A stretch of DNA of 64,000 nt, taken from assembly GCA_965223265.1 (NCBI GenBank), contig OZ244999.1, forward strand, positions 4,412,188-4,476,187, read 5' to 3'. This DNA is from Planctomycetota bacterium (GTDB taxonomy: Bacteria; Planctomycetota; UBA8108; SXIK01). Below are positions 2,680 to 43,343 of this stretch, in pieces. A program made the translations under genes and the position numbers. How positions within the stretch are numbered: position 1 is the first letter of the stretch; each line of letters begins with the position of its first letter. The notes under the pieces are model-generated. The model made no database searches and was not told where the DNA came from. It saw nothing but the letters and a program-made list of their open reading frames with translations.

Positions 2680-3600
2680 TCATCCCACCGCCGGACCTGC
2701 CGAAGCCCACTGCCACTCGGGATGCGACGGCGCCGACTTGATGCCGCGAAACATGCGCACGAACTCGCGCCGGCGGACAAACCCGAGCTCCTGCAGCCTG
2801 GCAGTCCACTGCTGAGCGCGCTCGCCCGCTTCGAGGGCGTCGATCGCTACAGCCGTCCCCACATCGAGCCGCTGTAGCACATTTGCCAGCAGTGCTTCGG
2901 CGATCGCCGGCCCGGTCGCAACAATCGGTCCGACGTGTGCGTAGAGGGAACCAGGTCGCGCGCTGGCGTACCCTGTCACGGAAACGCATTCAGCGCAGGA
3001 GTTCACGCTCGCGTCGACGACGAAGCTCAGTTGCGGAGACTGCCGCGCCCATGCCTCGATGACATCGACTCTTGGTGCCCCGAAGGCATGGCGGTCGAGC
3101 TCGAACGCTGCCGGGGCGTCGGCATTCAAGTCGAAGCTCCGTACGGTGATCGAGCCAGCGAGGTGCGCTGATCGTTCTTGACACTCACTTGATACAGTCG
3201 CGACCCACCGTCCCAGCCTCACGTGATCATGAAATCCCAAAGTCTGATAAAGGCGCTGCCCCTCAGTCGTCGCATCGAGTCCGACGGTATGACACTCGCT
3301 GTCTAAGCTTTCCAGTGCTCGACCAAGGAGACGTCGACCGATGCCCTGCCGCCGCACACTTCGGTCAACAAGTACCATGCCGACCCAACCAACAGAGCCC
3401 GAATGGACCACCGTCGTCGTCGTGCCGACTCCAACGCCACCGACCTCGGCAACGAAACAGCCATGTGGACGGAAACGAAGAAAGTGGTGCCAGTCCGCAG
3501 CCGTTTGATTCCAACCGGCCTCCTCTTTGAGACGCATACCGAGCTCGACGTCCGTCGATTGCATGCGACGAATGTGCACCGAGTCAGCCACGTTGCCCAT
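2680..3600 (-). CDS. GNAT family N-acetyltransferase with C-terminal YitH-like acetyltransferase extension
   Basis: The acetyl-CoA binding motif VRRQGIGRRLLGRALE follows the HIRRM...VELGMRL beta1 region. Start chosen at Met167 of the long ORF (coordinate 3600), preceded by GGAG-N6. The upstream 160 codons of the ORF are Arg-rich and overlap the neighbouring oxidoreductase, so I treat them as not real. Confidence 0.7.
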   Translation of the reverse strand: MGNVADSVHIRRMQSTDVELGMRLKEEAGWNQTAADWHHFLRFRPHGCFVAEVGGVGVGTTTTVVHSGSVGWVGMVLVDRSVRRQGIGRRLLGRALESLDSECHTVGLDATTEGQRLYQTLGFHDHVRLGRWVATVSSECQERSAHLAGSITVRSFDLNADAPAAFELDRHAFGAPRVDVIEAWARQSPQLSFVVDASVNSCAECVSVTGYASARPGSLYAHVGPIVATGPAIAEALLANVLQRLDVGTAVAIDALEAGERAQQWTARLQELGFVRRREFVRMFRGIKSAPSHPEWQWASAGPAVG

Positions 3601-20100: not shown

Positions 20101-20246
20101 TCCTGCGGGTCGAACGTCAGCCCTATGACCTCGTTCCACCCACTGCCGACGGTGGTCTCGACGAAGTCAGGAGGAAGCGCCCACAAAGAGACCGGAAGAC
20201 AGAAAGCCAGCGCTAGATGGATCCCTACGTTCGCTCGTCTTGGCAT
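11139..20246 (-). CDS. Giant secreted multidomain protein (3035 aa): signal peptide, PQQ-dependent sugar dehydrogenase-like beta-propeller, PKD/Ig domains, then four DUF2341-LamG modules (three followed by Big-Ig(I-set)-PKD)
   Basis: N-terminal signal peptide (HLALAFCLPVSLWALP). GSDH-like propeller region. PKD signatures (WDFGDG...Y..L.VTD). Repeated WWD.SW..R..LTFNN (DUF2341) followed by LamG_3-like FDGVDDFIDAG...LSIEAW. Ig I-set-like and bacterial Ig-like segments. A single uninterrupted ORF of 9108 nt. Confidence 0.85.
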   Translation of the reverse strand: MPRRANVGIHLALAFCLPVSLWALPPDFVETTVGSGWNEVIGLTFDPQDHENRVFVWERGGRVWIVENGVKLATPFIDINDEVGGWRDYGLLGFALHPNYHLNGHVYLLYVVDRHHLLHAGTPSYNPAQNEYFAATIGRITRYTAIKPPGDDDFGHATAIDPNSRLVLLGETASTGFPILHQSHGVGGLIFGTDGTLIASCGDGASYSSTDTGSASETYYVDGLADGIIRPDENVGAYRSQMLSSLSGKIVRLDPDTGDGLPSNPFWEAAAPRSARSRVWSLGLRNPCRIALRPNSGSHTPSDGNPGSIYIGDVGWQIWEDLHVATAPGQNFGWPAFEGLTVHSGYFSRDVPNEDAPNPLFGVGGCTQEFFYFNDLIQQDTLDPNPFFPNPCDPAQAIPGSVEVFLHTRPAIDWRHGSGPSRTGIYDGLDADVINIGAAGSPVAGPQFGGNSAIGGVWYTADDFPAQYKDTYFHADYSGRWIRNFVFDGSDQPVEVRDFLDSSAARSIVYIATHPQTGGLYYVDWNTDQIFEVAYAPGGNQNPTAVASADVFYGPTPLTVQFTGSNSSDPEGAVTYEWDFGDGSPISTQADPSHQFTASPGVPTQFDVVLTVTDSGGATDTATVVISLNNTPPSVTIDSPVDGTLYSMAGDTPFSLTATISDAEHSQGELTCAWQTFLIHNDHDHRDPVDPNCSTSTVISPAGCDGNIYFYRIFLTVSDAAGLSTTTHVRVLPDCGSTLVADAGADQMVTDTDEDGFELVTLDASASNDPGAVISSYTWLLPDSTVLATGVSPQVSLAVGDHEILLEVINDLGHVDVDSVMVSVVSGSGQPPTAAFTATPTSGEIPLTVQFDASGSFDTDGTIVSYDWTFGDGGVDTGVTTSHEYTSVGDFTATLTVTDNDGFTDSISDTITVNGSWWDLSWSRRHRLTFNNAAQAENLVNFPVLVTLDATRIDYSLTQAQGEDLRFIDADGFTVLSHEIESWDPAGTSHVWVKVPQIDAGSTTDHMMLYYDNASAPDGQDAAGVWSAGYAGVWHLDDFQDSTSNANDGVDNGTAPSAGRIGSARSFDGVDDFIDAGTSASLEITGQLSIEAWIRLAPGQSGHPPRIVSKKNVWNDPFGYNLEVQQSNSRITSLGSGSDSLRADGVVLGTDTWHYIATSASGTTGQVYLDGVDVTTDSTMSSLVANPQPLNIGRVAGSTAYFLGVLDEVRISSVTRSAAWIAAQHQSMSDGMLTYGVGEGGGRPPPTVSITSPADGTLYVEPVNVTIEATASDPEGTVDQVDFYADGGLLGSDTTSPYEYVWNGVPVGTHSLTAVATNDGGVSETSAAVSITVDAAPSPPSITQDPQSQSVFEGETATFDVVASGTAPLSYQWLLNSVPIGGATSSSYTTPVLTLADDGGFYSVEVSNAFGSVTSADAVLTVLPVPNDPPTASFTATPESGLEPLLVSFDASGSSDTDGTIVSYSWDFGDTQGDTGVTTTHEYASAGTYLATLTVTDDDGDTDSTTTTITVSNIGWWDASWGQRRQLTFNNAAQAENLVDFPVLVTLDATRIDYSLTQAQGEDIRFIDADGFTVLSHEIESWDPAGTSHVWVKVPQIDASSTTDYMMLYYDNASAPDGQDAAGVWSAGYAGVWHLDGTQDSTSNANDGVDNGTAPSAGRIGSARSFDGVDDFIDAGTSASLEITGQLSIEAWIRLAPGQSGHPPRIVSKKNVWNDPFGYNLEVQQSNSRITSLGSGSDSLRADGVVLGTDTWHYIATSASGTTGQVYLDGVDVTTDSTMSSLVANPQPLNIGRVAGSTAYFLGVLDEVRISSVTRSAAWIAAQHQSMSDGMLTYGVGEGGGRPPPTVSITSPADGTLYVEPVNVTIEATASDPEGTVDQVDFYADGGLLGSDTTSPYEYVWNGVPVGTHSLTAVATNDGGVSETSAAVSITVDAAPSPPSITQDPQSQSVFEGETATFDVVASGTAPLSYQWLLNSVPIGGATSSSYTTPVLTLADDGGFYSVEVSNAFGSVTSADAVLTVLPVPNDPPTASFTATPESGLEPLLVSFDASGSSDTDGTIVSYSWDFGDTQGDTGVTTTHEYASAGTYLATLTVTDDDGDTDSTTTTITVSNIGWWDASWGQRRQLTFNNAAQAENLVDFPVLVTLDATRIDYSLTQAQGEDLRFIDADSFTVLSHEIESWDPAGTSHVWVKVPQIDASSTTDYMMLYYDNGSAPDGQDAAGVWSAGYAGVWHLDGTQDSTSNANDGVDNGTAPGAGRIGGARTFDGVDDFIDAGTSASLEITGQLSIEAWIRLAPGQSGHPPRIVSKKNVWNDPFGYNLEVQQSSGRITSLGSGSDSLRASGVVLGTDTWHYVATSASGTSGQVYLDGVDVTTDSTMSSLVANPQPLNIGRVAGSTAYFLGVLDEVRISSVTRSAAWIAAQHQSMSDGMLTYGVGEGGGRPPPTVSITSPADGTSYVEPVNVTIEATASDPEGTVDQVDFYADGGLLGSDTTAPYEYVWNGVPVGTHSLTAVATNDGGVSETSAAVSITVDAAPSPPSITQDPQSQSVFEGETATFDVVASGTAPLSYQWLLNSVPIAGATSSSYTTPVLTLADDGGFYSVEVSNAFGSVTSADAVLTVLPVPNDPPTASFTATPESGLEPLLVSFDASGSSDTDGTIVSYSWDFGDTQGDTGVTTTHEYASAGTYLATLTVTDDDGDTDSATTTITVSNIGWWDASWGQRRQLTFNNAAQAENLVDFPVLVTLDATKLDYAAIQAAGEDLRFIDDDGTTVLSHEIDTWDPTGTSYVWVRVPQIDAVSSVDYIMLYYDNPVAPDGQDAAGVWTAGYNAVWHLNSDLQDSTANINDGVNSGSTAGAGQIGAARSFDGVDDFIDAGTSPSLEVTGQLSIEAWFSLAAGQSGHPPRIVSKKNVWNDSFGYNLEVHQSSGRVTSLGSGTNYLRATGLTLSSDTWYYVATSVDGGTGRVYLDGVDVTADSTLSPLVANPQPLNIGRVAGSTAYFLGLLDEVRISGVTRSAAWIAAQHLSMSDNFITFSN
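11990..17480. repeat. Three near-identical in-frame tandem copies of a 1797-bp (599-codon) unit inside the giant gene; a fourth, diverged copy of the DUF2341-LamG part lies at 11139..~12100
   Basis: Six-frame ORF markers recur exactly every 1797 bp (12241/14038/15835; 12823/14620/16417; 13184/15011/16808). Direct alignment of 11941-12245 with 13741-14045 shows near identity from ~12030 onward. Encoded protein copies differ only by scattered substitutions. Confidence 0.9.
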
Positions 20247-20356
20247 GCGCTTTCCCTACGTTGACAAAAAGCAAGCGGAAAACTGGAGCGCGGCCGTATT
20301 TAAGGCATAAAACTAGCCCAGTTGCCCTGATCTCCGCCGTTCGATTGAAGCACCCG

Positions 20357-20383
20357 CTAGATTGTTCCTAGAGATTGTTCTAG
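20357..20383. promoter_or_regulatory. Direct repeat CTAGATTGTTC CTAGAGATTGTTCTAG in the 5' region of the giant gene (candidate operator)
   Basis: Two copies of AGATTGTTC, 6 bp apart and flanked by CTAG, lie ~110-135 bp upstream of the giant gene ATG (20246, minus strand), within a locally AT-richer 317-bp intergenic region. Confidence 0.3.
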
Positions 20384-28323: not shown

Positions 28324-29265
28324 ATGACTGCTCTCCGCCCAGCCAACGTGAAGCCGTTCGCCCAACGTCTTGAAGAAGCGATCGATGCCAAAGGAAGCTG
28401 TCTCGTTGTCGGCCTCGACCCAATCCTCGAGCGCCTGCCGCCAGATAGCCTCGCAGCGATCGGGCACCGAGCCTCGGGCTCTGAGGGAGAAACCGCGCGC
28501 GCCGCGGCGTCCTTCGGGCTCTTTTGCCGCGTGGTGATCGAACAGGTCGCCGACGTCGCCGTCGCCGTCAAGCCGAACATTGCCTTCTTCGAGCGCTACG
28601 GCGCCGCAGGGCTCGACGTCTTGCGGTCGATCTCGAAGGAAGCGCAGGACGCTGGTCTACTCGTCATCCTCGATGCCAAGAGAGGCGATATCGGCCACAC
28701 GGCCGAGGCGTACGCCGAAGCCCTGCTCGGCACCACGAACGACACGCTCGGGCCCCACGTCGACGCGTTGACCCTGAATCCGTATCTCGGGCGAGATTCC
28801 ATCACGCCGTTCGTCGATCGAGCGCAAGCGCTGGGTCGCGGACTGTTCCTGCTCGTGCGAACTTCCAATCGATCCGCAGCGGACTTCCAGGAGCTCGAAG
28901 TCGCCGGCGCGCCGCTGTACGTCGAAGTCGCGCGCCAGGTTGCTGCTTGGGCGACCGAGTGCCGAGAGAAAGACGGCTGGAGCTGCATCGGCGCCGTGGT
29001 CGGCGCCACGTCGCCCGAAGCCGCGGCACAGATACGGGAGATCCTTACCGCCAGCTATTTCTTAGTGCCTGGGGTCGGAGCACAGGGAGGCGATCCAAAG
29101 GATCTCGCGCCATATTTCGTCGCCGGAGGCCACGGCGCGATCATCAATGCGTCGCGTTCGATCATCTTCGCGTACGAAAGTCGACCAGGGCCATGGCCTG
29201 ACGCAATTCGCGCCGCGGCACAGGAGACACGCGACACACTGGAGATGGTGCGCACGGGCCGCTGA
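28324..29265 (+). CDS. pyrF: Orotidine-5'-phosphate decarboxylase (long type-2 form)
   Basis: DAKRGDIG active-site lysine motif. Length and pattern match type-2 OMP decarboxylases. Confidence 0.85.
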   Translation: MTALRPANVKPFAQRLEEAIDAKGSCLVVGLDPILERLPPDSLAAIGHRASGSEGETARAAASFGLFCRVVIEQVADVAVAVKPNIAFFERYGAAGLDVLRSISKEAQDAGLLVILDAKRGDIGHTAEAYAEALLGTTNDTLGPHVDALTLNPYLGRDSITPFVDRAQALGRGLFLLVRTSNRSAADFQELEVAGAPLYVEVARQVAAWATECREKDGWSCIGAVVGATSPEAAAQIREILTASYFLVPGVGAQGGDPKDLAPYFVAGGHGAIINASRSIIFAYESRPGPWPDAIRAAAQETRDTLEMVRTGR

Positions 29266-30352: not shown

Positions 30353-30800
30353 GTGTACTACCTCCCCGTGCTCCGGACGGCACCCAGCCCACTAGAACCG
30401 GCAGTCGAAGCCGCGTCAATGTCCTGCGACCGGGAAATTCGCGTGCCAAGGGCAAAGTGGGGCGAACGGGTGAGCGCGCCGTCGACGAGCCCGGCCTTAA
30501 CCCGTAAACTGGATCTTTTCCCTATCCCAGCTCTCCCGCCCTCAAGTGCCCAATACCCCTGCGGCCTACACCCAGGGTATCGGCTTTCAGGATCGGGGGG
30601 ATTTTGGGTGCGAACGGCTGTTTCCACCTGTTCCAGCAACCCAGGAGCCCCCAAGCGGGGTGTCAACAAGTTAGGCACCCCTCGAGCCGGGACCCCTCTC
30701 CTAAACTCCCTTGCCCCCCAAGAGGAACGCACCCGCCCGGTCGACGCTCTCGCATGGCCGTGGTCGGCTCGCATCTCTCAGATCTCAGGAGTCAATCTGT

Positions 30801-33800
30801 ATGCGAAGTCCACGAGAGACCGTCTCTCTTCTCCACGTCAGCCGCGCCTCGCTTTGGATCGCAACGTTCGCTCTGGCGGCGGCAGTCGGCTGCAATGATT
30901 CGTCAAGCAGCGGCGGTGGCGGAGGGAGCGGTATGCCTCCCGGAACTCCTGGCACGGCGACGGTCTCCGTAGTTTCGGTGACACCGTCGGACGGCGCCAA
31001 CGACGTGGCGACGAGCGCGGCGGTTCAGATCGAGTTTTCCGCCGACGTCGACGCGGCGACAGTGACCGCAGCGAACTTTCAAGTTTCGGGCTCGGTGACC
31101 GGCCTCGTCGCGGGCGCATACGCCTACGACGGAACGAACTTCGTAGCCACCTTCACACCGGACGAAGAGTTCGCGTTTGGAGAGACGATCGCGGTGGACT
31201 TGACCACCGACATCAAAGCTGCCGACGGCGGCGCGTTCGACGGTTTCATGTCTAGCTTCACGATCGAGGCAAGCCCACCTCTGCCGGCGAATCTCGTCAC
31301 CATCGAGTCAGCTTCTCCAGAGCGCGCAGCGCAGGGTGTCGACGCGAATGCTGAGGTGAATGTTCTGCTGAGCGACAGCGTTGTCCCCAGCTCCGTCAAC
31401 GTCGCAACCGCGTGGCTAAACAGTAGCCTCACGGGACGCGTCGCGGCCCAGCTCGTGCTCATGGACTCGAGTCGCCGCATTCGAATGTTTCCGTCTCGGC
31501 CGTTTCGCGCCGGAGAAGTCATTACGGTACACCTTTCGGCTCTTATCGAGCCAGCCGACGCGGCTCAAGTGTTCGTCGGTGAGTCGTTTCGCTTTCGCGT
31601 CGCCTCAGCAGCTACGGATCTGACGAATGCGCGCCGATCAGTGACGAGCGCGGTCACAACCATCAAGGAACTGCTCAGCGGCGACTTCAACCTCGACGAC
31701 CACCTCGACCTCGCCTACCTGACCGACGGTGGCAGAGAGATCCACTTTCTTCTCGGCGACGGTAGTGGAGATTTCCCCGGCCGCGCTCGCGTCGGTTTCC
31801 CAATGGAGCTCCTCAGCATCGCAACAGGCGACCTTGACGTCGACGGCGATGTAGACTTCATTGTCGGCACTCTGACGGGCGTGGCGACAGCCACGAACCT
31901 CGCAGCGCAGCAGAACGTGGCGGGCGACGAAGTCCGTTTCACGCCTTCCTCGGAAGTGATCCTCGGTAGCGCGGTGCGCGGTATTGTCGCGGGCGACATC
32001 GACTTTCTGGGCGATCTCGATTACGTACTCGACACCGACGCTGGGCTCGAAGTTCGCTTGGGCTCGCTCGCCTCGAATTCCGTTCAGGTTTTGGGCGCCA
32101 GCCGCCAGGCGGCGTCGCCACTGCGCCTTGACGACCTCAACCTCGACGGTCAAGTCGACCTGGTTTACGGCGCCGCGACCGGGACGCGCCTCGCTTACCG
32201 CCTCGGTCGGTTGCCAGACGTCAACGGCGGTCAGGGTGGCAACGACGCGACGAATCCATTCGGTCCGGAACGCTCAGTCGAAATAGGCCATGGTGTTGAA
32301 GATCTGCTCGTCGAAAACCTGGACTCAAATGCAACGCCGGAAATCCTGGTACTCACGACTGCCGGTGCAACACTCGAAGGCGGCGCACTCCGAATCCTCA
32401 CGCGCAACGAAGTGGGCGGGTATGAAGTGGAGGAGCTTGTCGGTCCAGCGCCGGAGGCAGGCGGCGACGGCGACGGCCAAGGCGCCAGCCTCGACACTGG
32501 GCGCTTGGCGCTCGCCGACTTTGAGGGGGATGCGGCGCTGGATCCGATCGTCTCGAGTGCTCTGAACGAGCGCGTCGTTTGGATCCCGCATCAAAGCGGC
32601 GCGCCCCTACTCCAGCAGGGCGAAGAGCTTCTCCGTGCACCCGTCGCGCTCTCCGTCATCGCCGGCGACTTCACGGCGAACGGCGCTACAGAAATCTACG
32701 CCGCAGCTTTGAACGAGGTTCACGGACTGATCGTCCGCGATGACGTGCCGCCGCCGGCAGATACCTTTCATCTCCGCGTCGTCGGTTCCGAAGCTCGCCG
32801 GGGTCAAGCGAGTGCCGCGGCGCTGCTACGGGCAACGAGCTCATCGCCTATGGATGGATACTCGCTCATCGTCGGCTACGATCCGGCGGTGCTCTCACCG
32901 CAGAGCGCAAGTTTCGTCGGCACGGAAACCGAATCAGCGGCAGCAGACTTCACCCGGTTTCAATTGCGGGCTGGCGACAGCGCTGTGACCGTCGAAGCGG
33001 TGGTCGACGTCTCCGCGGCGGTCCGCACCATTCCCCCCATCAACGATGCTGCCCTCTGTCGACTTCTCTTCACTGTCCAACCGGATGCGGCGCTCGGCGA
33101 CTCCTCCCTGACGCTCGTGGACACGCTAGCAAGCGTACCTGCGATCTCAACGCGCTTCGTCGTGGGGAGTGATACGATCACTCCGACATTGGAAGACGGC
33201 GAGCTCACGATCGTCTCCGGCGACGAGCCAAACGGTGGTGAGAACCCGAACAAGATGCGCGCCGGCGACGCCGCGATCGCCGCGGGCACCTCGGGGCTCG
33301 TGCCAATCTTTGGCACGGCGGAGGAAAACGTCGACGCGTTCACGACGATTCTCGGCTTCGATCCCGACTTCCTCGACTTCGAAGACGTCGATCTGACCGG
33401 GTCCGCGACTGAACCGCTCAACCCTGAGTTCACGTTCCTCCGACGCGCGCCAGAAGGTGATCACTTCACGTACACCGTCATCTTTGACTTTAACCCGCCG
33501 TTCGACCGCCAAGCGATTCCGGCCGGCGACGACTTTCTCCTTTTTAGCGCTCGCTTTGCAGTCAAACGCAGCACACCAACCGGTGCCTACCCGGTAATGT
33601 TCCTCGACGGCGTCGGCGATCCCGCGCTTTTCAACATCTTTGCGTTCGGCGGTCAATCCATTCTGGTCGACACGCAAAACGGAGTGATCGAGGTGGAAGG
33701 CACTGGAGAGACATTCTTCATCCGTGGTGACGCCAACGTCGACGGCGTGGTCGACCTGGACGACTCCGGGGTGATCAACGCTTTCGTCTTCGGGGAATCG

Positions 33801-33977
33801 GACTCGGTTCCTTGCCGTGACGCCGTGGACGTCAACGACGACGGAGAACTCTCGGTCAGTGACGCAACATTCTTCCTGCGTTTCTTTCTGCAAGGCGACG
33901 TCGAGCCACCGGCGCCGTTCCCCGATCCAGGCATGGATCCGACGGAAGACTCGCTCGACTGCGAACAAGGAATCTAA
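30801..33977 (+). CDS. Secreted lipoprotein with SbsA-type Ig-like domains, FG-GAP/VCBS-like repeats, two cohesin-like modules and a C-terminal dockerin-like double repeat
   Basis: Lipobox (LAAAVGC) after a positively charged N-terminus; start at 30801 rather than the 30711 ORF start. VSVTPSDGANDVATSAAVQIEFS Ig-like domain. D.N.D...D FG-GAP-like calcium-binding motifs. C-terminal GDANVDGVVDLDD...DVNDDGELSVSDATFFLRFFL dockerin-like pair. Confidence 0.75.
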   Translation: MRSPRETVSLLHVSRASLWIATFALAAAVGCNDSSSSGGGGGSGMPPGTPGTATVSVVSVTPSDGANDVATSAAVQIEFSADVDAATVTAANFQVSGSVTGLVAGAYAYDGTNFVATFTPDEEFAFGETIAVDLTTDIKAADGGAFDGFMSSFTIEASPPLPANLVTIESASPERAAQGVDANAEVNVLLSDSVVPSSVNVATAWLNSSLTGRVAAQLVLMDSSRRIRMFPSRPFRAGEVITVHLSALIEPADAAQVFVGESFRFRVASAATDLTNARRSVTSAVTTIKELLSGDFNLDDHLDLAYLTDGGREIHFLLGDGSGDFPGRARVGFPMELLSIATGDLDVDGDVDFIVGTLTGVATATNLAAQQNVAGDEVRFTPSSEVILGSAVRGIVAGDIDFLGDLDYVLDTDAGLEVRLGSLASNSVQVLGASRQAASPLRLDDLNLDGQVDLVYGAATGTRLAYRLGRLPDVNGGQGGNDATNPFGPERSVEIGHGVEDLLVENLDSNATPEILVLTTAGATLEGGALRILTRNEVGGYEVEELVGPAPEAGGDGDGQGASLDTGRLALADFEGDAALDPIVSSALNERVVWIPHQSGAPLLQQGEELLRAPVALSVIAGDFTANGATEIYAAALNEVHGLIVRDDVPPPADTFHLRVVGSEARRGQASAAALLRATSSSPMDGYSLIVGYDPAVLSPQSASFVGTETESAAADFTRFQLRAGDSAVTVEAVVDVSAAVRTIPPINDAALCRLLFTVQPDAALGDSSLTLVDTLASVPAISTRFVVGSDTITPTLEDGELTIVSGDEPNGGENPNKMRAGDAAIAAGTSGLVPIFGTAEENVDAFTTILGFDPDFLDFEDVDLTGSATEPLNPEFTFLRRAPEGDHFTYTVIFDFNPPFDRQAIPAGDDFLLFSARFAVKRSTPTGAYPVMFLDGVGDPALFNIFAFGGQSILVDTQNGVIEVEGTGETFFIRGDANVDGVVDLDDSGVINAFVFGESDSVPCRDAVDVNDDGELSVSDATFFLRFFLQGDVEPPAPFPDPGMDPTEDSLDCEQGI

Positions 33978-34640
33978 CCGCTGCACCGAGTGCGCGGCCC
34001 TTCACATCAGCACCCTCGTCAGCGGCGCTCGCAGAACGGAAACGATGGCCTCCTCAGCACGGTTGGCGGCGATTTCATGTGCGCCGAAACGGCTCTTGGT
34101 CCGTAGCTCGCGGGAGCCAGCCTGAGGTCTCTGCGTGCGCAGTTCGCCAGCCCGAGTCGTCCCACGCCAGCGCCGGCATCCGCTCCTCCAAGTCGACCCA
34201 AAATACATCCATAACTCACTACGCAAAAATATCTTACAACTCCCCCTTGACGACAAAACGGCCTTACCTACGGCTGCTTCTCAGCGGCTCCAGTTCTGGA
34301 GGTGTGCGCCCTGCAGCAGCTTAGAACAATCTCAGAAAAACCCCTTGCGGGCCCAACCACGATCCTTTAGATTTCCCTTCCCTCGAGCACCGCTCAAAGC
34401 GACGGGCTTGGTGGGGAAAAGAAGCTTCCGAACCCGGTCAAAGTCAGGCGGACAGCCTTCGGAAACGGAGATTGTGAGGACTCGTCGTCGAACGGTCTCC
34501 GAAGCGGCAAGACGACTTGAACGACCGTGTTTGGACGCAGCTCGACGTCCCCGGCTGTGGGTCTGTAGTCAATTTCTAGGTTGACCCAGACGGTGATTTT
34601 GTCGACACAAACAAGCCAATCTGATTGAGATCCGTTCTCC

Positions 34641-34692
34641 GCCAGGTGAAGACCAGTTCATGCCGCTGGTTCTCGCCTGGCTTTTTTGTTTG
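34641..34692 (+). terminator. Intrinsic (rho-independent) terminator: GC-rich ~15-bp stem GCCAGGUGAAGACCAG/CUGGUUCUCGCCUGGC followed by UUUUUUGUUUG
   Basis: Inverted repeat 34641-34656 / 34666-34681 with a 9-nt loop, followed immediately by T6GT3 on the plus strand. No A-tract precedes it, so it is plus-strand specific. Confidence 0.55.
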
Positions 34693-34938
34693 AGGCGGAT
34701 CTTCGACCACTCGGAGACTCCGGCATTTGCGGTAGCGCCCGCTTCAGCTAGCGGTGCCCCTCGCGGAATGCCCCGGGCTGCGTTTGTTCAGACACCCCGC
34801 TGCGTAGGTCTACCTCGGGAGCGTGCGCGGCCGCCGCGACCCGGGCGAGATGACACGCTCGAGGGCCCCTCTTGGAGATCTGAGACGAGCAGAGCTCCCC
34901 GGCTGCCGGCGCAGCGGCCATGTGGCCCAGCCCGAGCT

Positions 34939-36225
34939 TCAGGACCCGCCTTCGGCCGGCTGCGCGGCTGGATCGCTCGTCGTCGGCGCGGCGTCGCCGC
35001 TGCTCGCGCCTTCGTCGGTGGGTGCCGCGCTGCCGTCACTCTCCCCGGCTGGGTCGATCTCTGTGCCCTCTTGCGGCTCTTCCCCATCCTCTGCGGGCTC
35101 CTCCGGCTCTTCCTCCTTCGGTAGGAAGTCTTCGAGTTTCTTATCCCAGCTGCCGAACTTGTATTTCAACATTCGATAGACGCGGTCGGCATTGGCCGCA
35201 TCGGAGATGCGAAAGTAGTGTCCGTCGTCTTCACCCTTGTCGTTCTTGATCGTGTCGCCAAAGGCCACTTCGAACGACAGCAACGCGCCCTCGGGCTCGT
35301 CCTTGCGGCGATACTGCATCGCAGCACGAAGCTGAGGCTGATCAAGACCGTAGGCCGCAGGTTCCTTCGGCTCGACGACATCCTCGACGCTGATGGTCTG
35401 CCCGGCATTGAGGATGCCGCGCGCTACATAAGACTGACCGCTCTCAACCTCGTGGGTCTCCGTGCCGCTCGTGACGACGAAGTACTCCTCGCGCTTCGTC
35501 TCCGGTTCACTCTTCTCCCCTTCGCCATCCTTGTCCGCGCTCGAGTCGTCCTCCGGCGCGTCGACGGGGACGTCGCGGAACCGCCGTTCCACGAGAAGGT
35601 CTTGCTGCTCAGGTCGAACGACTCGGACCGACTGAATCTCCATGTCACTCGGCAGCTTGAAGACGTCTTTTTCGATGTAGTTCTTCCCTTCAGCATCGTC
35701 CCCCCACAGACTAGCATCCGAGCGCAGGTTCGTCGCCACGCGATACGTCGCATCTTCATCATCGAAACGGACGAAAACGCGTGTGTTCGTAATGCTACCG
35801 CCGGTCGCCGTCTTACCGATCGTCATGTTGGCGAGCTGTTGACCGCCTCCATCGAACACTCGCAGCTTGCCACCTTTCTTTTCATCCACTTCGAAGTTGG
35901 CGTGAGATCCGCGCTGGTTGCCGAACTGCTCAGGGTCTTCCAACTCACCAAGCGACTTGAGGATCTTGCCGACCTTTTCGTCGTCCGCCGGGTAATTGAA
36001 CGACGATGCAACGAGCCACTGACCGCCCTCCTTCTTGAGCTCGACCTTACCTTCTCCCTTGGCGATCTCGATGCGGGCTGCGTCGTCGATCTTCGCCTCC
36101 TGCAAGCGCTGAAAGCCGGCGGAGACCTCCCCTTCGTGGGTGACGTAGGGCGTCCGATCGACGAGAAAAAATGCAACGACAAGCACGACGAGCACGACGA
36201 GCGCGCCGATGATCGATTTATTCAT
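34939..36225 (-). CDS. DUF4340 domain protein (GldG-associated), N-terminal TM anchor, acidic C-terminal tail
   Basis: MNKSIIGALVVLVVLVVAFFLV anchor and overall DUF4340 pattern. Sits immediately downstream of the GldG-like gene, as is usual for this family. Confidence 0.7.
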   Translation of the reverse strand: MNKSIIGALVVLVVLVVAFFLVDRTPYVTHEGEVSAGFQRLQEAKIDDAARIEIAKGEGKVELKKEGGQWLVASSFNYPADDEKVGKILKSLGELEDPEQFGNQRGSHANFEVDEKKGGKLRVFDGGGQQLANMTIGKTATGGSITNTRVFVRFDDEDATYRVATNLRSDASLWGDDAEGKNYIEKDVFKLPSDMEIQSVRVVRPEQQDLLVERRFRDVPVDAPEDDSSADKDGEGEKSEPETKREEYFVVTSGTETHEVESGQSYVARGILNAGQTISVEDVVEPKEPAAYGLDQPQLRAAMQYRRKDEPEGALLSFEVAFGDTIKNDKGEDDGHYFRISDAANADRVYRMLKYKFGSWDKKLEDFLPKEEEPEEPAEDGEEPQEGTEIDPAGESDGSAAPTDEGASSGDAAPTTSDPAAQPAEGGS

Positions 36226-36282: not shown

Positions 36283-38655
36283 TCACGCACCGCGGGCTTG
36301 GTGCTGTTCGATGTAGCGACGTTCATAGCCGATACTCCGGCTGCGTCGAACGAGAAAGACGACGATTCCGAAGACGGCCACGAGGACAGGGACGAGAAAG
36401 TTGAAAAAGATAATCGACTGGTACGAGTTCTCGGCGCCTGGCTTGAAGAATCGCTGCGTGAGCTGCTTGCGACGGATTGTCAGCAGACGTTCGTCCGCGC
36501 CGAACACCTCGACCGCATTGATCAGGAACGTCAGGTTGCCCTGACTGCCGCTCCCGTTGATGTACCCTGTCTTCATCATGTCGGCCGAAGAAACGAGAAG
36601 CAGTCGGCCATCGACAGGTGTGATCTCAACCTTGACCGGCACCGGCTTGGCCTCCTCGTCGCTAGCGTCGTCGGCGGCGGCGGCATCGCCTCCTCCCGCA
36701 CTGGAGTCTCCACTGTCAGCGCCTGCATCTGTGGCAGTGTCTCCCGCGCCGGCGTTTGACTCCTGCAGCAGAGCCAAATCGTCTGGATCGACAGCGTCGA
36801 GGACACCATCACCGCCGCCCGGCATACCTGGGAAGCCTCCCGGCATGCCCGGGAAACCTCCCGGCATGCCTCCGTGTGGGTTCATCCCTCCAGGAGCTCC
36901 GGCATCAGGCTCCTCGCGCCACTCGGGGGCGGGCTGCCCCTGATACTTAAACGGAAACTTGCCCTGAACCAAAATCGCCAATTTGCGGGAATCTACGAAA
37001 TCGGGAAACGTGTCCGGTTTTTCGTGAATCAAATCCTTCTGCTCACTCACCAGGCTTGGAGGTGCGCCGCGATTGAGAGGATTCTGAGCATTGGCGAACG
37101 GATTGATCGTTGCTGTCCACGACTGGTCCGACGACCTCGCCAACACTTCGGACGTGAATCCGAGCTTCTCGAAGATTGAGTCGGTCACGGCCACCCCAGT
37201 AGCCATCGGAAAAACGAGCTCATTGACACCGTTGAGCATTGAGTGACTACTCTCAAGGTGGTCACGACGTGCGAGGACGCAGGCCGCCGCCGGCACGGCA
37301 CCAGGGATCGTCATCGGTCCGATTCGCTGCAGGAGCCGGATCGTGCCGCGCTCGTTTGATGCCAACGCCTGATGCGGCAGCTCGATTCCCCAGCTTTTGA
37401 GTAGATCATCGAAGTCTGATCCTGGGCCGAACGTCGCGATCGGAACTCCCTGCTGCATCCCCTGCTGCGAGTAATCGAGGCCAAAGCGCGAGGCCAAAAA
37501 GATCGTGCTCACGCCCAAGGAAATCGCCCGGTTGATCTCGAAAACCTGGCGCGGCTCGAGCTGATCCGGCTGCGCGATCACGAGGCAAGAGAGCAGTGCG
37601 TAGTCAGCAGGCTGCACGCCGCCCGCCAGTGCCTGCTCCTTAGCGGCGTCATCGGCACGCTCGTTTTCGCGCTCCCACTTGTCCTCCTTGAGCTTGCGGA
37701 CAAGATCCTCGATCGAATCGGCTTCTTTGATTGCCACTTCACGCAAGTCAAAGAACTCACGTAAGTGGTTCCAGACCGCCTCGTAGTCGGATGGCGGCGG
37801 GCGCTGCGGCTGCATCGGATTCATCGGCGGGGCTGGAGGCTTGCGACCGTCGAAAACGGCAACCACCGGTTTCTGCTCACGCGTCAGCTTCAGGATGCGG
37901 CTAGCGAGTTCATACTCGAGGGTCTCGAGCCGGTGGTGAACCGGGATCACTTCAGGTTGCTTGTCGAGATATGAAATCTTGATCGCGGTGTAGGCTCGAA
38001 CCTGACGAAACTCTCCCGCCGTTGACTCCTGCAGCGGGATCGGAAAAATCTGTTCCTCTTCGAGCTTTTGTTTGTACTGCTCCTCGAACTGTCGCCCCAG
38101 AATCTCGCGCTCGACGTCTCCCTGCTCGCGCCCCTGACGTGCCGCCAACTTCTGAGCGGCTTCCTCACGCTGCTTACGGATTTCCTCGGCGGTCGGCGGC
38201 TGGCGCTGACTGAAGATGTCCTGAATCGTCTGGACGGGCTCCGGCTCTTCAGGCGTCTTACCGGCCTCTTTGGCCTCGTAATACGCGTCGACCTTCTCCC
38301 TCGCGTAGTTCGCCGCCTCTGCGTCGGGGTCACGGATCTCAAAGACAAGCTTACCACCCGAGATCTCGCTGAACTCTTCGAACATATCGCGCGTGTCGCG
38401 CACGACCGTCTTGAAGAAACTCGGCAGCTCCTTCCCGCTCACGTAGTAGTCGACCTTCACCTGGTCGATGAGCTCGCTCAGGATATTCTTCGTCGGCTCT
38501 GACACGGTGTAGACTTTGTCCGCGGTCAGATCAACTTTGTGACGGCTCAGCGCTCCCGATAGCGGATAGAGCAGGAGCAAGATCACCACACAGATGCAGA
38601 GAAAAAGAATGTTCCCAACGAAGAACTTCTTGCGAAAACTTTGGCTGTCAGCCAT
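36283..38655 (-). CDS. GldG-like ABC-transporter auxiliary component (ABC_transp_aux), TM helices at both ends
   Basis: N-terminal TM helix (ILFLCICVVILLLLYPLSG) plus C-terminal TM helix (IIFFNFLVPVLVAVFGIVVFLV). Large periplasmic region. Position between an ABC-2 permease gene and a DUF4340 gene. Confidence 0.75.
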   Translation of the reverse strand: MADSQSFRKKFFVGNILFLCICVVILLLLYPLSGALSRHKVDLTADKVYTVSEPTKNILSELIDQVKVDYYVSGKELPSFFKTVVRDTRDMFEEFSEISGGKLVFEIRDPDAEAANYAREKVDAYYEAKEAGKTPEEPEPVQTIQDIFSQRQPPTAEEIRKQREEAAQKLAARQGREQGDVEREILGRQFEEQYKQKLEEEQIFPIPLQESTAGEFRQVRAYTAIKISYLDKQPEVIPVHHRLETLEYELASRILKLTREQKPVVAVFDGRKPPAPPMNPMQPQRPPPSDYEAVWNHLREFFDLREVAIKEADSIEDLVRKLKEDKWERENERADDAAKEQALAGGVQPADYALLSCLVIAQPDQLEPRQVFEINRAISLGVSTIFLASRFGLDYSQQGMQQGVPIATFGPGSDFDDLLKSWGIELPHQALASNERGTIRLLQRIGPMTIPGAVPAAACVLARRDHLESSHSMLNGVNELVFPMATGVAVTDSIFEKLGFTSEVLARSSDQSWTATINPFANAQNPLNRGAPPSLVSEQKDLIHEKPDTFPDFVDSRKLAILVQGKFPFKYQGQPAPEWREEPDAGAPGGMNPHGGMPGGFPGMPGGFPGMPGGGDGVLDAVDPDDLALLQESNAGAGDTATDAGADSGDSSAGGGDAAAADDASDEEAKPVPVKVEITPVDGRLLLVSSADMMKTGYINGSGSQGNLTFLINAVEVFGADERLLTIRRKQLTQRFFKPGAENSYQSIIFFNFLVPVLVAVFGIVVFLVRRSRSIGYERRYIEQHQARGA

Positions 38656-40935: not shown

Positions 40936-41020
40936 GCACGTCACGGCCGCACGTCACGGCCTCACGTCACGGCCTCACGTCACGGCCTCACGTCACGGGT
41001 CACGGCCTCACGTCACGGCC
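40936..41020. repeat. 13-bp tandem repeat (TCACGTCACGGCC) x ~6, one copy degenerate
   Basis: GCACGTCACGGCC GCACGTCACGGCC TCACGTCACGGCC TCACGTCACGGCC TCACGTCACGGG TCACGGCC TCACGTCACGGCC. It directly abuts the stop codon (41013-41015) of the minus-strand TPR gene. Confidence 0.85.
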
Positions 41021-43343
41021 ACCACGTCAGGAGACGGCGGAGGCTGGCCGCCGCCGCCTCGTGCAGCTGCGCGGCGCCCGGGTCGGAGGCGGAGTCAGAA
41101 AAGATGTAGATGACCGCATAGCGCTCGGCGGCCGCCGCGGGATCTACGTCCACCTCAGCGTTGGCCTTCTCGAGCTCGTCTCGCAGCCAATGCACGCGTC
41201 GCTCCGCCACAAGGTCGCCGAGCTTCTGCCCCACCGTGCGCGCGAGTCTGAGCAGCAGGTCGCTGCGCGACGGCAGGTCGTCGGGGTCGCTCAGAATCAC
41301 ACCGTCCGCCTCCGGGAGGACGACGCGGTCGCGCAGGATTTCGGCGGCAGTGACCCATAGGCGCTCTTGGTCGAGCTCAAACTCGAGCGCCAGTGCAGCT
41401 TGATAGAGTCTGTGCTCAGTCGGCGCCGACCGCTCCCCCCAACTCAGCTCGGCCAATTGCCGTGGGAGGGCCTGCGCCCGGACAGTCATGCGGTGCAGAC
41501 GCTGGGACGCCAATCGTCGCCGCTCATCCAACAGGCCGCGGGCCAGAGCCGAACTCGGGTCGGGAGCTTCGAGAAGCTGCTCGAGTTCGTGCTGCGCCGC
41601 GTCGAGCTCCTCCGTCGCTTGCTTGCTGGCTTGGCTCGGAGAGAGCTGCATACCGGCCACCATCGGCTGCCGGATCCACCCCGGGCGCAGCGCCCGCGGT
41701 GCGACCCAAAACTCAGCCTGGCGCAGAACGACGACACCCAGCCCCCCGGCGCGCCCGGCCCGGCGCGTGCGCTTGAGCGCATGGCCCGGGAGGCTCCGCA
41801 AGCTGGCCGCTCGAGCGACGACCTCGAGCAGATCGTCCGCAGCGGCGCGGCGCACACGCCAGAGGTCGCACTTGAGGTCCCACTCGTCGGAGGCAAGGGC
41901 GACCTTGAACTCCAGCGTTCCGGCGGGGCCGCGCCCAGCCAGACGCGCCCGAAGACGGGCGGCGCGCAGGCGCAGTGATTTCGCCTGACACCCCGCGACC
42001 TCAGATGCCGCACGCACCCCGTCTGTGGTGGAGACGCCGTCGGCGGCGAAGCGATGGACCGTTTCGCAGAGCGTCGTCGCCAGCTGCAAGCAGAGAAGCG
42101 CGGTGGCGATGCGGCCTTCGTCTTCCAGTTCAAAAGCGCGCAGCGTCAGCTCGTCTGTCAGTTCACGCCGAACCGTGCGCTCGAGTTCTGCGACTCGAGC
42201 GGCTTCGACCAGGTTCTGGCCAGAGCCGAGACCCCTTTCCCCCAAACGCGCCATCTCCGCCAGAGCCGCGTAGGCGACATGCCACACCTCGGCGCGAGCG
42301 GCCTCGACAGCTCTTGAGTACGCCCGCTCGATGCGCGCGCGGTGGACCCGGGCCTCGCCATCAGCCGCGGCCTCGAGCCCGGGGTGGGCGAGGCGGGCCG
42401 ACCGAAAACGCTGCGCGGCCTGATCAAGCACCCCGCTAGCTTCAGACTCCGCCGCCGCCCGCAGCCACTGCAAACCTCGCCGTACAGAAGCAATGACCGT
42501 CGTTGCTCGACGGCACTCATCGAGATGGCGCTCGAGGAGAACGGCCACGTCGGCATCGGAGGCGACATCGTCGCCGACAGCATCGAGGCCGACAGCATCG
42601 AGGCCGAACGCCGAAGTCGCCCCCAGACGACGATCCAGTTCGAGCTGCGCTTGCGTCAGCTCGAGTCGCAGATTCTCCCACCCAGCTTGCAGTTTCTCGA
42701 GACGGCGCTCCTCGGCGGGCAGAGCCGCCCCGAACGTTCGTTCGCTCAGCTCTCGCGAGCGGCTCTCCACGGCCGCACGCAGCGCCGCCGACCACTCCGG
42801 CTGCCGCGCCTCGGGAGCCATCGACGCGCTAAGGAAATCACCGAGGTGGTGCACTCTCTCCCACGATCCCGGAGGCGCGGCTTCAACACGGCGCTCGAGC
42901 GCCGCCAAGTCGACGAGCCCCTGTCGCACGCGAGCGTGGTCGTCTGCCACGAAGATCCACTCGGGCGCATACTCCAGGGCGAGACGATAGTGATGGAGAG
43001 CAGCAGCAAACTCTCCCTGCCGCTCGAGCTCGCGCCCAGCGCCGCGCTCGGCGCGGGCAACTTGTCGCCCAGCCTGCTCGCACGCGCGGCGATAGGAGTC
43101 GGAATCGGGATTCAGCCGGATTGCCTGCCAAAAGTCGCGGTAGGCTGATCGATAATCACCGCTCTCGTAGTGCGCCTCACCACGACGAAACTCGGCACGA
43201 CCGCGGCATCCCGAGCTGATCAAACCGCACGCCAGTACAGCGGCGAGAGTGCTGAGCGCTGCAGCACGCGCACGGCGGCGAGTCTCGAGACGACGGGAAG
43301 CCAGCTCTCGGTGAAGAAGCGAACCGCGCAAGTCTACCGGCAC
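41013..43343 (-). CDS. Hypothetical TPR-like/coiled-coil envelope protein with N-terminal signal or lipoprotein anchor
   Basis: N-terminal AALSTLAAVLACGLISSGC hydrophobic segment with Cys. The TPR-like motif GEAHYESGDYRSAYRDFWQAIRLNP. The rest is Ala/Arg/Glu/Leu-rich helical. High GC means the exact start is uncertain. Confidence 0.55.
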   Translation of the reverse strand: MPVDLRGSLLHRELASRRLETRRRARAAALSTLAAVLACGLISSGCRGRAEFRRGEAHYESGDYRSAYRDFWQAIRLNPDSDSYRRACEQAGRQVARAERGAGRELERQGEFAAALHHYRLALEYAPEWIFVADDHARVRQGLVDLAALERRVEAAPPGSWERVHHLGDFLSASMAPEARQPEWSAALRAAVESRSRELSERTFGAALPAEERRLEKLQAGWENLRLELTQAQLELDRRLGATSAFGLDAVGLDAVGDDVASDADVAVLLERHLDECRRATTVIASVRRGLQWLRAAAESEASGVLDQAAQRFRSARLAHPGLEAAADGEARVHRARIERAYSRAVEAARAEVWHVAYAALAEMARLGERGLGSGQNLVEAARVAELERTVRRELTDELTLRAFELEDEGRIATALLCLQLATTLCETVHRFAADGVSTTDGVRAASEVAGCQAKSLRLRAARLRARLAGRGPAGTLEFKVALASDEWDLKCDLWRVRRAAADDLLEVVARAASLRSLPGHALKRTRRAGRAGGLGVVVLRQAEFWVAPRALRPGWIRQPMVAGMQLSPSQASKQATEELDAAQHELEQLLEAPDPSSALARGLLDERRRLASQRLHRMTVRAQALPRQLAELSWGERSAPTEHRLYQAALALEFELDQERLWVTAAEILRDRVVLPEADGVILSDPDDLPSRSDLLLRLARTVGQKLGDLVAERRVHWLRDELEKANAEVDVDPAAAAERYAVIYIFSDSASDPGAAQLHEAAAASLRRLLTWWP

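What the first reader, a model, noticed from the sequence alone, without database searches (positions are those of the whole stretch)
33978..34938. ~1 kb ORF-free gap with promoter-like -35 and a strong intrinsic terminator: candidate ~400-nt ncRNA
There is no credible ORF on either strand between the secreted-protein gene (ends 33977) and the DUF4340 gene (ends 34939, opposite strand). The only ATG ORFs are Arg/Pro-rich shadow frames. A locally AT-rich patch holds TTGACG (34248-34253) followed by a possible -10. A textbook rho-independent terminator (15-bp GC-rich stem at 34641-34681 followed by TTTTTTGTTTG) then ends a plus-strand transcript about 380-450 nt downstream. The region also contains the TAGAACAATCTC 12-mer shared with the giant-gene promoter. 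I could not match it to tmRNA, RNase P, SRP or 6S consensus by eye.
Basis: seen in the sequence. Interest (0 to 1): 0.5.

Follow-up and report, generated by a model that had tools for sequence, protein, structure and literature searches.

The report
New conserved planctomycete small RNA gene
The gap holds a previously undescribed non-coding RNA gene of about 310 nt, with its own conserved promoter and terminator, found at the same chromosomal spot in a clade of Planctomycetota; its function is still unknown.

Summary
The interval 33978-34938 lies between two converging genes and has no credible ORF. The hairpin at 34641-34681 plus its T-run is a real intrinsic terminator.

Comparison with 13 homologous loci from planctomycete MAGs and metagenomes shows one discrete conserved unit:
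- an A-tract;
- TTGCGR, then 17 nt, then TAGAKT;
- a 5' hairpin;
- a body that varies from 229 to 454 nt in total transcript length;
- an invariant stretch, GAAUCCGUUCUCC;
- a terminator with compensatory changes and a conserved loop, YCAUGCC.

In close relatives, conservation falls from 96-100% inside the unit to 66% upstream and 31% downstream. The unit sits next to the 3' end of a DUF4340 gene in both orientations, so it is a separate transcription unit and not a 3' UTR.

There is no conserved ORF, no Rfam 15 match, and no tRNA or tmRNA call.

The likely promoter lies about 100 nt downstream, which makes the RNA about 308 nt (34380-34687).

The most likely function is a trans-acting base-pairing sRNA that uses the invariant C/U-rich stretch as its seed. 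That is inference; I found no target and have no expression data. It is a new family of a known kind, of moderate interest.

The parts
34319..34333 (+). Conserved upstream box GCTTAGAACAATCTC (family consensus GCTTAGRACAAT).
   Evidence: Present 11-12 nt upstream of the -35 block in all 11 full-length distinct promoters. In about 189 kb of the window and homologous loci it is found only there and once upstream of the giant ORF.
34334..34344 (+). A-rich tract followed by a C-run (AGAAAAACCCC) between the box and the -35 block.
   Evidence: An R-A-A-R-A-A-type tract is conserved at this position in all homologs.
34345..34350 (+). Putative -35 hexamer TTGCGG.
   Evidence: TTGCGR is invariant in all homologs. 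It is one of only 5 TTGNNN-N16-18-TANANT matches on both strands of the window.
34351..34367 (+). 17-nt spacer of fixed length and variable sequence.
   Evidence: The spacer is 17 nt in 10 of 11 promoters and 18 nt in one. The sequence is not conserved except at its 3' end.
34368..34373 (+). Putative -10 hexamer TAGATT.
   Evidence: TAGATT, TAGAGT or TACAGT in all homologs. It falls below the E. coli-consensus threshold of the scan, so this assignment is an inference from conservation.
34380..34415 (+). Predicted transcript start (uncertain by a few nt) and 5' terminal hairpin P1, which begins with the conserved CCUYG.
   Evidence: Pair probabilities are 0.8-0.99 in the window RNA. A closed 5' hairpin domain closed by the CCUYG motif is predicted in 6 of 10 non-redundant homologs and, without that motif pairing, in three more. 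There is one C-G to U-A compensatory change. Not statistically tested.
34416..34627 (+). Variable body made of several predicted hairpins.
   Evidence: Total transcript length varies from 229 to 454 nt between lineages. Within a close group the body is 89% identical against 66% and 31% for flanking intergenic DNA. Covariation here is not significant.
34628..34640 (+). Conserved C/U-rich stretch AGAUCCGUUCUCC (family GAAUCCGUUCUCC), proposed as the seed or recognition site.
   Evidence: AUCCGUUCUCCGCC is invariant in all 14 distinct homologs. These include five unique RNA-bearing loci found through protein homology rather than through the motif (L001, L004, L033, L037, L039). Mean predicted unpaired probability is 0.32-0.96.
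34641..34681 (+). Terminator hairpin. Arms are 34641-34656 and 34666-34681. The conserved loop motif CAUGCC is at 34659-34664.
   Evidence: Energy -30.8 kcal/mol, z = -6.0. It has 15 pairs, 5 of them with changes on both sides, and 0 of 500 shuffles as good. The loop YCAUGCC is invariant.
34682..34692 (+). U-tract TTTTTTGTTTG, marking the 3' end of the RNA.
   Evidence: A T-run of at least 5 follows the hairpin in every homolog.
20350..20383 (-). Second copy of the box, upstream of the 3035-aa ORF: TAGAACAATCTC followed by TAGGAACAATCTAG.
   Evidence: It aligns with the sRNA promoter as TAGAACAATCTC-N11-T[T/A]GCGGG (read). Co-regulation is a hypothesis only.
33978..34318 (.). Non-conserved spacer.
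   Evidence: No conservation in the alignments. Direct repeat D1.
34693..34938 (.). Non-conserved spacer between the RNA's 3' end and the DUF4340 stop codon.
   Evidence: Downstream DNA is unalignable even among close relatives (31% identity).

Best explanation
Window 34319-34692 (+) is a stand-alone gene for a non-coding RNA of about 308 nt (34380-34687). The gene belongs to a family conserved in one clade of Planctomycetota.

Supported by comparison:
- It is a discrete unit with sharp conservation boundaries.
- A promoter-like block is conserved: box GCTTAGRACAAT, A-tract, TTGCGR, 17 nt, TAGAKT.
- The terminator covaries.
- There is no conserved ORF.
- Orientation is independent of the neighbouring genes.

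Inferred:
- Transcription starts about 7 nt after TAGATT and ends at the U-tract.
- The RNA carries a protective 5' hairpin, a fast-evolving structured body, and an invariant 13-nt C/U-rich stretch (GAAUCCGUUCUCC) just 5' of the terminator.
- That stretch, complementary to GGAGAACGGAUUC, most likely acts as a seed that pairs with Shine-Dalgarno-like sequences of one or more conserved mRNAs in trans. The terminator hairpin and U-tail (conserved loop YCAUGCC) would then be a chaperone site or a second contact.
- The conserved upstream box suggests control by a dedicated transcription factor, possibly shared with the 3035-aa surface-protein gene at 11139-20246.

My confidence that this is a real independent ncRNA gene is about 0.85. 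My confidence that it works as a base-pairing regulator is about 0.4. The single score given (0.55) is for the statement as a whole.
For: Homologs. Fourteen distinct homologs share the architecture. Five unique RNA-bearing loci (L001, L004, L033, L037, L039) were reached through DUF4340 protein homology, not through the RNA motif; L034 is a second contig carrying the same protein as L033. All five carry the exact 3' motif.

Conservation profile in the close group:
- upstream: 66%
- promoter block: 96%
- transcript nt 1-60: 100%
- body: 89%
- 3' motif plus terminator: 97%
- downstream: 31%

Terminator. Five compensated pairs, 96.7% paired, 0 of 500 shuffles as good, and slid controls collapse. 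Hairpin z = -6.0.

Promoter. The 17-nt spacing is fixed while the spacer sequence varies.

Orientation. The unit lies beside the DUF4340 3' end on the same strand in L021, L022, L025, L028, L033, L037 and L039. It is convergent in the window, L001, L015, L027 and L026.

Non-coding. There is no conserved ORF, and reading frames differ even between 90%-identical copies.

Strand. The plus strand folds better than shuffles and the minus strand does not.

Copy number. One copy per locus.
Against: - There are no expression data of any kind.
- The promoter hexamers match the E. coli consensus at only 7 of 12 positions and were not picked up by the consensus scan.
- Covariation in the body is not significant, and P1 rests on predictions plus one compensatory change.
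- No convincing target site was found in the 64-kb window or the fetched loci. That is only a tiny fraction of a 9-Mb genome.
- The predicted accessibility of the proposed seed is only moderate in several homologs.
- Most homologs were found with the 3' motif itself, which inflates its apparent invariance. The loci found through protein homology partly control for this.
Confidence: 0.55

Rival explanations
1. The RNA binds or sequesters a protein rather than base-pairing with mRNAs. One example would be an RNA-polymerase-binding RNA in the manner of 6S or Ms1. The invariant stretch and the conserved terminator loop would then be protein contact sites.
For: Two short invariant elements (GAAUCCGUUCUCC and loop YCAUGCC) sit beside a freely varying body. 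The promoter is very strongly conserved. No mRNA target was found nearby. 6S RNA was reported as not detectable in Pirellula, Rhodopirellula and Thermogutta (PMC5673643).
Against: No Rfam 6S-type model matches even at E up to 5-10. Predicted folds are multi-hairpin and lack a consistent 5'-3' closing stem or central bubble. Length ranges from 229 to 454 nt. No repeated protein-binding motif is enriched in the body. GGA is not enriched by my hand count. Whether this genome lacks 6S is unknown, because only 64 kb is available.
Confidence: 0.15
2. The RNA has no promoter of its own. It is the long 3' UTR of the upstream same-strand gene, or a 3'-UTR-derived processed RNA from it. In the window that gene is the Big_5/FG-GAP gene.
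For: In every locus a gene lies upstream on the same strand: Big_5 in the window, L001, L004, L017 and L031, and DUF4340 in the L021-type loci. No terminator was detected between the Big_5 stop codon and the unit in the window.
Against: The upstream gene differs between lineages while the TTGCGR-17-TAGAKT block and its upstream box stay invariant. Conservation begins abruptly at the box, with 66% identity upstream against 96% in the block. The distance from the upstream stop codon ranges from roughly 90 to 340 nt.
Confidence: 0.08
3. The conservation acts at the DNA level only. The region would be a regulatory site plus a terminator serving the neighbouring genes, and any RNA made has no function of its own.
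For: Only the two ends are strongly conserved across distant lineages. The body diverges in both length and sequence.
Against: The terminator points away from DUF4340 in convergent loci, and no gene lies downstream of the promoter block. Within the close group the body is far more conserved than the flanking intergenic DNA (89% against 31-66%). The unit moves as a whole when inverted.
Confidence: 0.05
4. The region encodes a small protein.
For: ORFs of 58-149 aa can be drawn across the region.
Against: No ORF is conserved. Frames and ends differ even between copies about 90% identical, and many run through the terminator without a stop codon. Compositions are those of Arg/Pro-rich shadow frames. 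The 149-aa ORF has no Pfam hit.
Confidence: 0.02

Closest known systems
SgrS-type enterobacterial sRNAs (architecture only; comparison from my own knowledge of Horler and Vanderpool 2009, not checked here)
   Same: A stand-alone gene with a conserved promoter carrying an upstream regulator site. The 5' part varies strongly in length and sequence between species. The short conserved pairing region lies just 5' of a Rho-independent terminator.
   Different: There is no sequence or Rfam similarity. No adjacent regulator gene is present and no conserved small ORF. The phylum is different. Target and chaperone are unknown.
C/U-rich anti-Shine-Dalgarno sRNAs such as RsaE/RoxS and actinobacterial 6C (from my own knowledge)
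   Same: A conserved pyrimidine-rich unpaired motif (here UUCUCC) that could pair with GGAG-type ribosome-binding sites. A stable terminator hairpin is also present.
   Different: These families have short RNAs carrying several C-rich loops. Here there is a single 13-nt stretch in an RNA of 230-450 nt. There is no Rfam match.
6S RNA and mycobacterial Ms1
   Same: A housekeeping-style, strongly conserved promoter. Ms1 is about 300 nt, a similar size. 6S has reportedly not been found in several planctomycetes (PMC5673643).
   Different: There is no covariance-model match, no consistent rod-with-bubble fold, and length varies widely. RNA polymerase binding cannot be tested here.
tRNA 3' half / tmRNA
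   Same: GAAUCC-GUUCU-CCGCC-R reads like the 3' half of a T-loop, a T-stem strand and an acceptor strand (my own observation).
   Different: ARAGORN finds no tRNA or tmRNA in the window or in 15 homologous loci. No matching 5' acceptor or T-stem strand is conserved. The GCC belongs to the terminator stem.

Membership tests
Intrinsic (Rho-independent) terminator | Stable G+C-rich hairpin immediately followed by a U-tract | tested here: met
   Energy -30.8 kcal/mol, z = -6.0. TTTTTT starts directly after the stem. The feature is present in all homologs.
Intrinsic (Rho-independent) terminator | Stem maintained by compensatory changes across homologs | tested here: met
   Five of 15 pairs changed on both sides, 96.7% of cells paired, 0 of 500 shuffles as good, and slid controls reach at most 49% paired.
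Sigma-70-type promoter | Two hexamers resembling TTGACA and TATAAT, 17 +/- 1 nt apart | tested here: inconclusive
   TTGCGR-17(18)-TAGAKT is conserved with fixed spacing and a variable spacer sequence in 11 of 11 promoters. It matches the E. coli consensus at only 7 of 12 positions and falls below the scan threshold. I found no TSS map for planctomycetes in the literature.
Sigma-70-type promoter | Primary transcript 5' end 6-9 nt downstream of the -10 hexamer | not testable with these tools
   Needs dRNA-seq or 5' RACE.
Any described RNA family (Rfam 15, 4227 models) | Covariance-model score at or above the gathering threshold | tested here: not met
   Zero hits in the whole window. In the gap, only a chance snoRNA match at E = 6.6. 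No consistent sub-threshold family in 7 homologous loci.
6S RNA | Match to 6S covariance models; rod-like fold with a 5'-3' closing stem and a large central bubble | tested here: not met
   No 6S-type hit at E up to 5-10. MFE folds are multi-hairpin and show no conserved closing stem. The fold comparison rests on predictions only.
6S RNA | Binds the RNA polymerase holoenzyme and templates pRNA | not testable with these tools
   Biochemical assay needed.
tRNA / tmRNA | Cloverleaf or tRNA-like domain recognised by ARAGORN | tested here: not met
   no genes found in the window or in 15 loci.
Trans-encoded base-pairing sRNA (general class) | Independent transcription unit in an intergenic region, non-coding, ending at an intrinsic terminator | tested here: met
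   Conservation boundaries, independence of orientation, no conserved ORF, terminator. Transcription itself is inferred.
Trans-encoded base-pairing sRNA (general class) | Conserved accessible seed with complementary sites in target mRNAs | tested here: inconclusive
   The invariant 13-nt stretch has a predicted unpaired probability of 0.32-0.96. No target above chance was found in the window or loci. Whole genomes were not available.
Trans-encoded base-pairing sRNA (general class) | Dependence on an RNA chaperone (Hfq or ProQ) | not testable with these tools
   Needs co-immunoprecipitation. The presence of hfq in the source genome could not be checked from 64 kb.
Small protein gene | ORF conserved in frame and length among homologs | tested here: not met

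The most novel reading that the evidence does not exclude
This could be a lineage-wide regulatory RNA of a poorly studied planctomycete clade, with two invariant recognition surfaces (GAAUCCGUUCUCC and the terminator loop YCAUGCC) that engage a conserved cellular machine rather than a single mRNA. One version of this reading is a functional stand-in for 6S RNA, which has not been detected in Pirellula-type planctomycetes. In this reading its promoter box would also tie it to a regulon that includes the 3035-aa repeat-rich surface protein.
Probability: 0.08. Interest if true: 0.7.

Novelty: new member of a known kind. Interest (0 to 1): 0.4.

Why it matters
My literature searches found no characterised regulatory sRNA and no transcription-start map for Planctomycetota.

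This locus offers three things:
- a well-delimited, conserved RNA gene that can be tested by Northern blot, deletion or pull-down in a cultured strain with a complete 9.18-Mb genome;
- a concrete, conserved promoter architecture for the group: box, A-tract, TTGCGR, 17 nt, TAGAKT;
- a candidate transcription-factor box shared with a giant surface-protein gene.

It also fills a 1-kb annotation hole that recurs next to the ABC/GldG-like/DUF4340 operon in related genomes.

Tried and rejected
- **Known RNA families.** Rfam at gathering and at permissive E-values on the window, the gap and 7 homologous loci gave nothing consistent.
- **tRNA or tmRNA.** ARAGORN was negative. The tRNA-3'-half look of the invariant motif led nowhere.
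- **First related-locus search.** The search for related loci with the DUF4340 protein on genome contigs found no relatives. Exact look-up of the window protein found no contig.
- **Coding potential.** No conserved ORF.
- **CsrB-like or repeated-motif sponge.** No k-mer is enriched beyond shuffles in the bodies. GGA is not enriched by my hand count.
- **Targets.** I searched for the complement of the invariant stretch in the window, in all loci by duplex energy, at 29 gene starts in the window, and in the DNA upstream of each RNA. Only chance-level hits appeared. An AGAACGGA site just after the Big_5 stop codon occurs in the window and L004 but not in L001, L017 or L031.
- **Whole-body consensus structure.** The bodies are too divergent to align across lineages. 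Within the close group covariation is not significant.
- **Sigma-54 or ECF reading of the conserved block.** I considered both by eye and dropped them: there is no GG-N10-GC spacing and no ECF-type -10.
- **Flanking inverted repeats.** I looked for repeats that could explain the orientation flips and found nothing convincing.
Not conserved.

Full report
**1. Checking the observation**

The 1088-aa ORF at 30711-33977 (+) carries Big_5 and FG-GAP domains and has a dockerin-like C-terminus. The 428-aa ORF at 34939-36225 (-) is a DUF4340 protein. It is the last gene of an operon encoding an ABC ATPase, an ABC-2 permease and a GldG-like protein. The two genes converge, leaving 961 nt between them.

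All ORFs in the gap are Arg/Pro-rich shadow frames, and the longest (149 aa) has no Pfam hit. GC drops to 0.51 at 34200-34399 against 0.62-0.66 nearby.

It folds at -30.8 kcal/mol, z = -6.0 against dinucleotide shuffles.

The 12-mer TAGAACAATCTC occurs at 34322-34333 (+) and at 20371-20382 (-), upstream of the 3035-aa ORF (11139-20246, -). About 0.14 matches are expected at up to one mismatch.

TTGACG is at 34247-34252, one base off from the stated coordinates.

The plus strand of 34255-34700 folds better than shuffles (z = -2.2). The minus strand does not (z = -0.7).

**2. Known families**

- Rfam 15 gives no hit at gathering thresholds anywhere in the window.
- In the gap it gives only a chance snoRNA match at E = 6.6.
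- It gives nothing consistent in seven homologous loci.
- ARAGORN finds no tRNA or tmRNA in the window or in 15 loci.

**3. Homologs**

The source is a 9.18-Mb contig of a planctomycete (P0001). Its ThrRS is at most 77% identical to other proteins, which are labelled Planctomycetota or Phycisphaerales MAGs.

DUF4340 homologs are at most 48% identical. Their contigs nevertheless show the same gap:
- L001 (SXIK01000214.1, a Planctomycetia MAG) has 1.1 kb between DUF4340 and a convergent Big_5 gene.
- L004 has 0.9 kb after the Big_5/dockerin gene.

Aligning the three gaps revealed a conserved core. It runs from the 12-mer region to the terminator and includes an invariant ATCCGTTCTCCGCC.

Pattern scans then recovered more copies:
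- L015 and L017 from genomes, among 12 chance hits in other phyla.
- L021, L022, L025, L027, L028 and L031, plus partial L023 and L026, from metagenomes.

A covariance model of the 3' domain (R1) found one copy per locus. It also found the RNA in L033/L034, L037 and L039. Those loci had been fetched only through DUF4340 protein homology.

The RNA is absent from three loci:
- L003.
- L035 and L036. There DUF4340 and Big_5 converge with only 35 nt between them.

**4. Anatomy**

All full-length copies share the following elements in order:
- GCTTAGRACAAT(C);
- an A-rich tract;
- TTGCGR;
- a spacer of 17 nt (18 in one copy), fixed in length but variable in sequence;
- TAGATT, TAGAGT or TACAGT;
- about 6 nt;
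- CCUYG...

I read this as an upstream factor or UP-type box followed by -35 and -10 hexamers. In the window these are:
- box: 34319-34333;
- -35: 34345-34350;
- -10: 34368-34373;
- predicted start: about 34380.

The consensus scan did not report this site, because it matches the E. coli hexamers at only 7 of 12 positions. The promoter assignment therefore rests on the conservation pattern. Only five TTGNNN-N16-18-TANANT matches exist on both strands of the window, and this is one of them.

Downstream come four parts:
- A 5' hairpin. It is strongly predicted in the window, L004, L017, L021, L028 and L015, and shows one C-G to U-A compensatory change at the Y of CCUYG.
- A body that gives total transcript lengths of 229-454 nt.
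- The invariant GAAUCCGUUCUCC (AGAUCCGUUCUCC in the window, 34628-34640).
- The terminator, with conserved loop YCAUGCC (34659-34664) and a U-tract.

Terminator covariation is clear. Of its 15 pairs, 5 changed on both sides. 96.7% of cells are paired, 0 of 500 shuffles do as well, and slid controls reach at most 49% paired.

Body structure could not be established. In the four close relatives the RNAalifold model is 97.7% paired but has only two compensated pairs, which is not better than shuffles.

**5. It is a discrete unit**

Among five close relatives, mean pairwise identity is:

| Region | Identity |
|---|---|
| 155 nt upstream of the box | 66% |
| Box plus promoter | 96% |
| Transcript nt 1-60 | 100% |
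| Body | 89% |
| 3' motif plus terminator | 97% |
| DNA after the U-tract | 31% |

The conserved block therefore begins at the box and ends at the terminator. The body is under constraint at short evolutionary distances.

**6. It is independent of its neighbours**

tblastn places the RNA beside the 3' end of DUF4340 in most loci, in both orientations:
- Same strand: L021, L022, L025, L028, L033, L037, L039.
- Convergent: the window, L001, L015, L027/L023, L026.

It follows the Big_5 gene on the same strand in the window, L001, L004, L017 and L031.

The unit keeps its promoter block whichever gene precedes it.

**7. It is not coding**

The longest ORFs differ in frame and extent even between copies about 90% identical. 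Many run through the terminator without a stop codon.

**8. Function**

Nothing here shows function directly.

The architecture is that of a trans-acting base-pairing sRNA: its own regulated-looking promoter, a 5' hairpin, a variable body, and a short invariant pyrimidine-rich stretch directly 5' of a strong terminator. The closest architectural parallel I know is SgrS, which has a variable 5' part and a conserved seed next to the terminator. Its content also recalls anti-Shine-Dalgarno sRNAs such as RsaE/RoxS. Both comparisons come from my own knowledge.

The complement of the stretch is GGAGAACGGAUUC, which looks like a ribosome-binding site.

I looked for such sites in four places:
- the window;
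- all loci;
- 29 gene starts;
- the DNA upstream of each RNA.

Only chance-level matches appeared. With 64 kb of a 9-Mb genome, this says little either way.

No repeated motif marks the body as a protein sponge.

A protein-binding role remains open, including an RNA polymerase-binding role like that of 6S or Ms1. 6S RNA was reported as undetectable in Pirellula, Rhodopirellula and Thermogutta (PMC5673643). However, neither the models nor the predicted folds look 6S-like.

**9. The shared box**

In about 189 kb of the window and homologous loci, a TAGRACAAT-type box occurs only at the RNA promoters and once upstream of the giant ORF. There it is followed by a second near-copy (TAGGAACAATCTAG). 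It lines up with the sRNA promoter as TAGAACAATCTC-N11-T[T/A]GCGGG.

Co-regulation of the RNA and the giant surface protein by one factor is a reasonable hypothesis, but it has not been tested.

**10. Verdict**

It is a new ncRNA family: it is absent from Rfam 15, and my literature searches found no planctomycete sRNA or TSS studies. It belongs to a familiar kind, the stand-alone bacterial sRNA.

Identity as an independent ncRNA gene is well supported at about 0.85. The base-pairing mechanism is the leading but unproven reading, at about 0.4. Interest is moderate.

Noticed in passing
window 40937-41029: About 7.5 tandem copies of a 13-nt unit (CACGTCACGGCCT). They lie mostly in the intergenic region upstream of the ABC/GldG-like/DUF4340 operon, and the 3' end of the array overlaps the end of the TPR ORF (41013-43343, -). 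They could be an array of binding sites; the meaning is unknown.
   Followed up: partly
window 11139-20246 (-): A 3035-aa ORF with four internal repeats of about 1797 nt. In parts of the unit three copies are 97-100% identical. It is probably a giant repeat-rich surface protein. Its upstream region carries the sRNA promoter box.
   Followed up: partly
window 34231-34252: ATCTTACAACTCCCCCTTG(ACG) is 74% identical to ATCTCAGAAAAACCCCTTG(CGG) of the true promoter 98 nt downstream. It is specific to this genome.
   Followed up: partly
window 34030-34040; L004 about 184 nt upstream of its -35: An AGAACGGA site complementary to the invariant RNA stretch lies just after the Big_5 stop codon in the window and in L004. 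It is absent from L001, L017 and L031. This is probably chance.
   Followed up: yes
L035 5504-5539; L036 1649-1684; L003: In some related genomes DUF4340 and the Big_5 gene converge with only 35 nt between them and the RNA is absent. L003 also lacks it. The RNA is therefore not universal even where synteny is kept.
   Followed up: partly
L037 6727-6752: The body of this homolog contains a tandem duplication of GGATAATCTCCGA. This illustrates how the body changes length.
   Followed up: no
L017 about 2990-3030 (-): After the terminator the sequence CCCTTTTTTTAGGGGG is repeated twice. It may be a duplicated terminator tail.
   Followed up: no
window 28324-29265 with L001 14621-15541 and L036 6199-6649: An OMP decarboxylase (pyrF-like) gene and a gene of roughly 290-320 aa with no known domain lie beside the Big_5 gene in several genomes. 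Conserved synteny therefore extends beyond the RNA.
   Followed up: no
window 34075-34212 (-): A 45-aa ATG ORF (MDVFWVDLEERMPALAWDDSGW...) is the only ORF in the gap that is not Arg/Pro-rich. It lies in the non-conserved spacer.
   Followed up: no
window 36814-36871: A 21-nt tandem repeat (2.8 copies) lies inside the GldG-like ORF.
   Followed up: no
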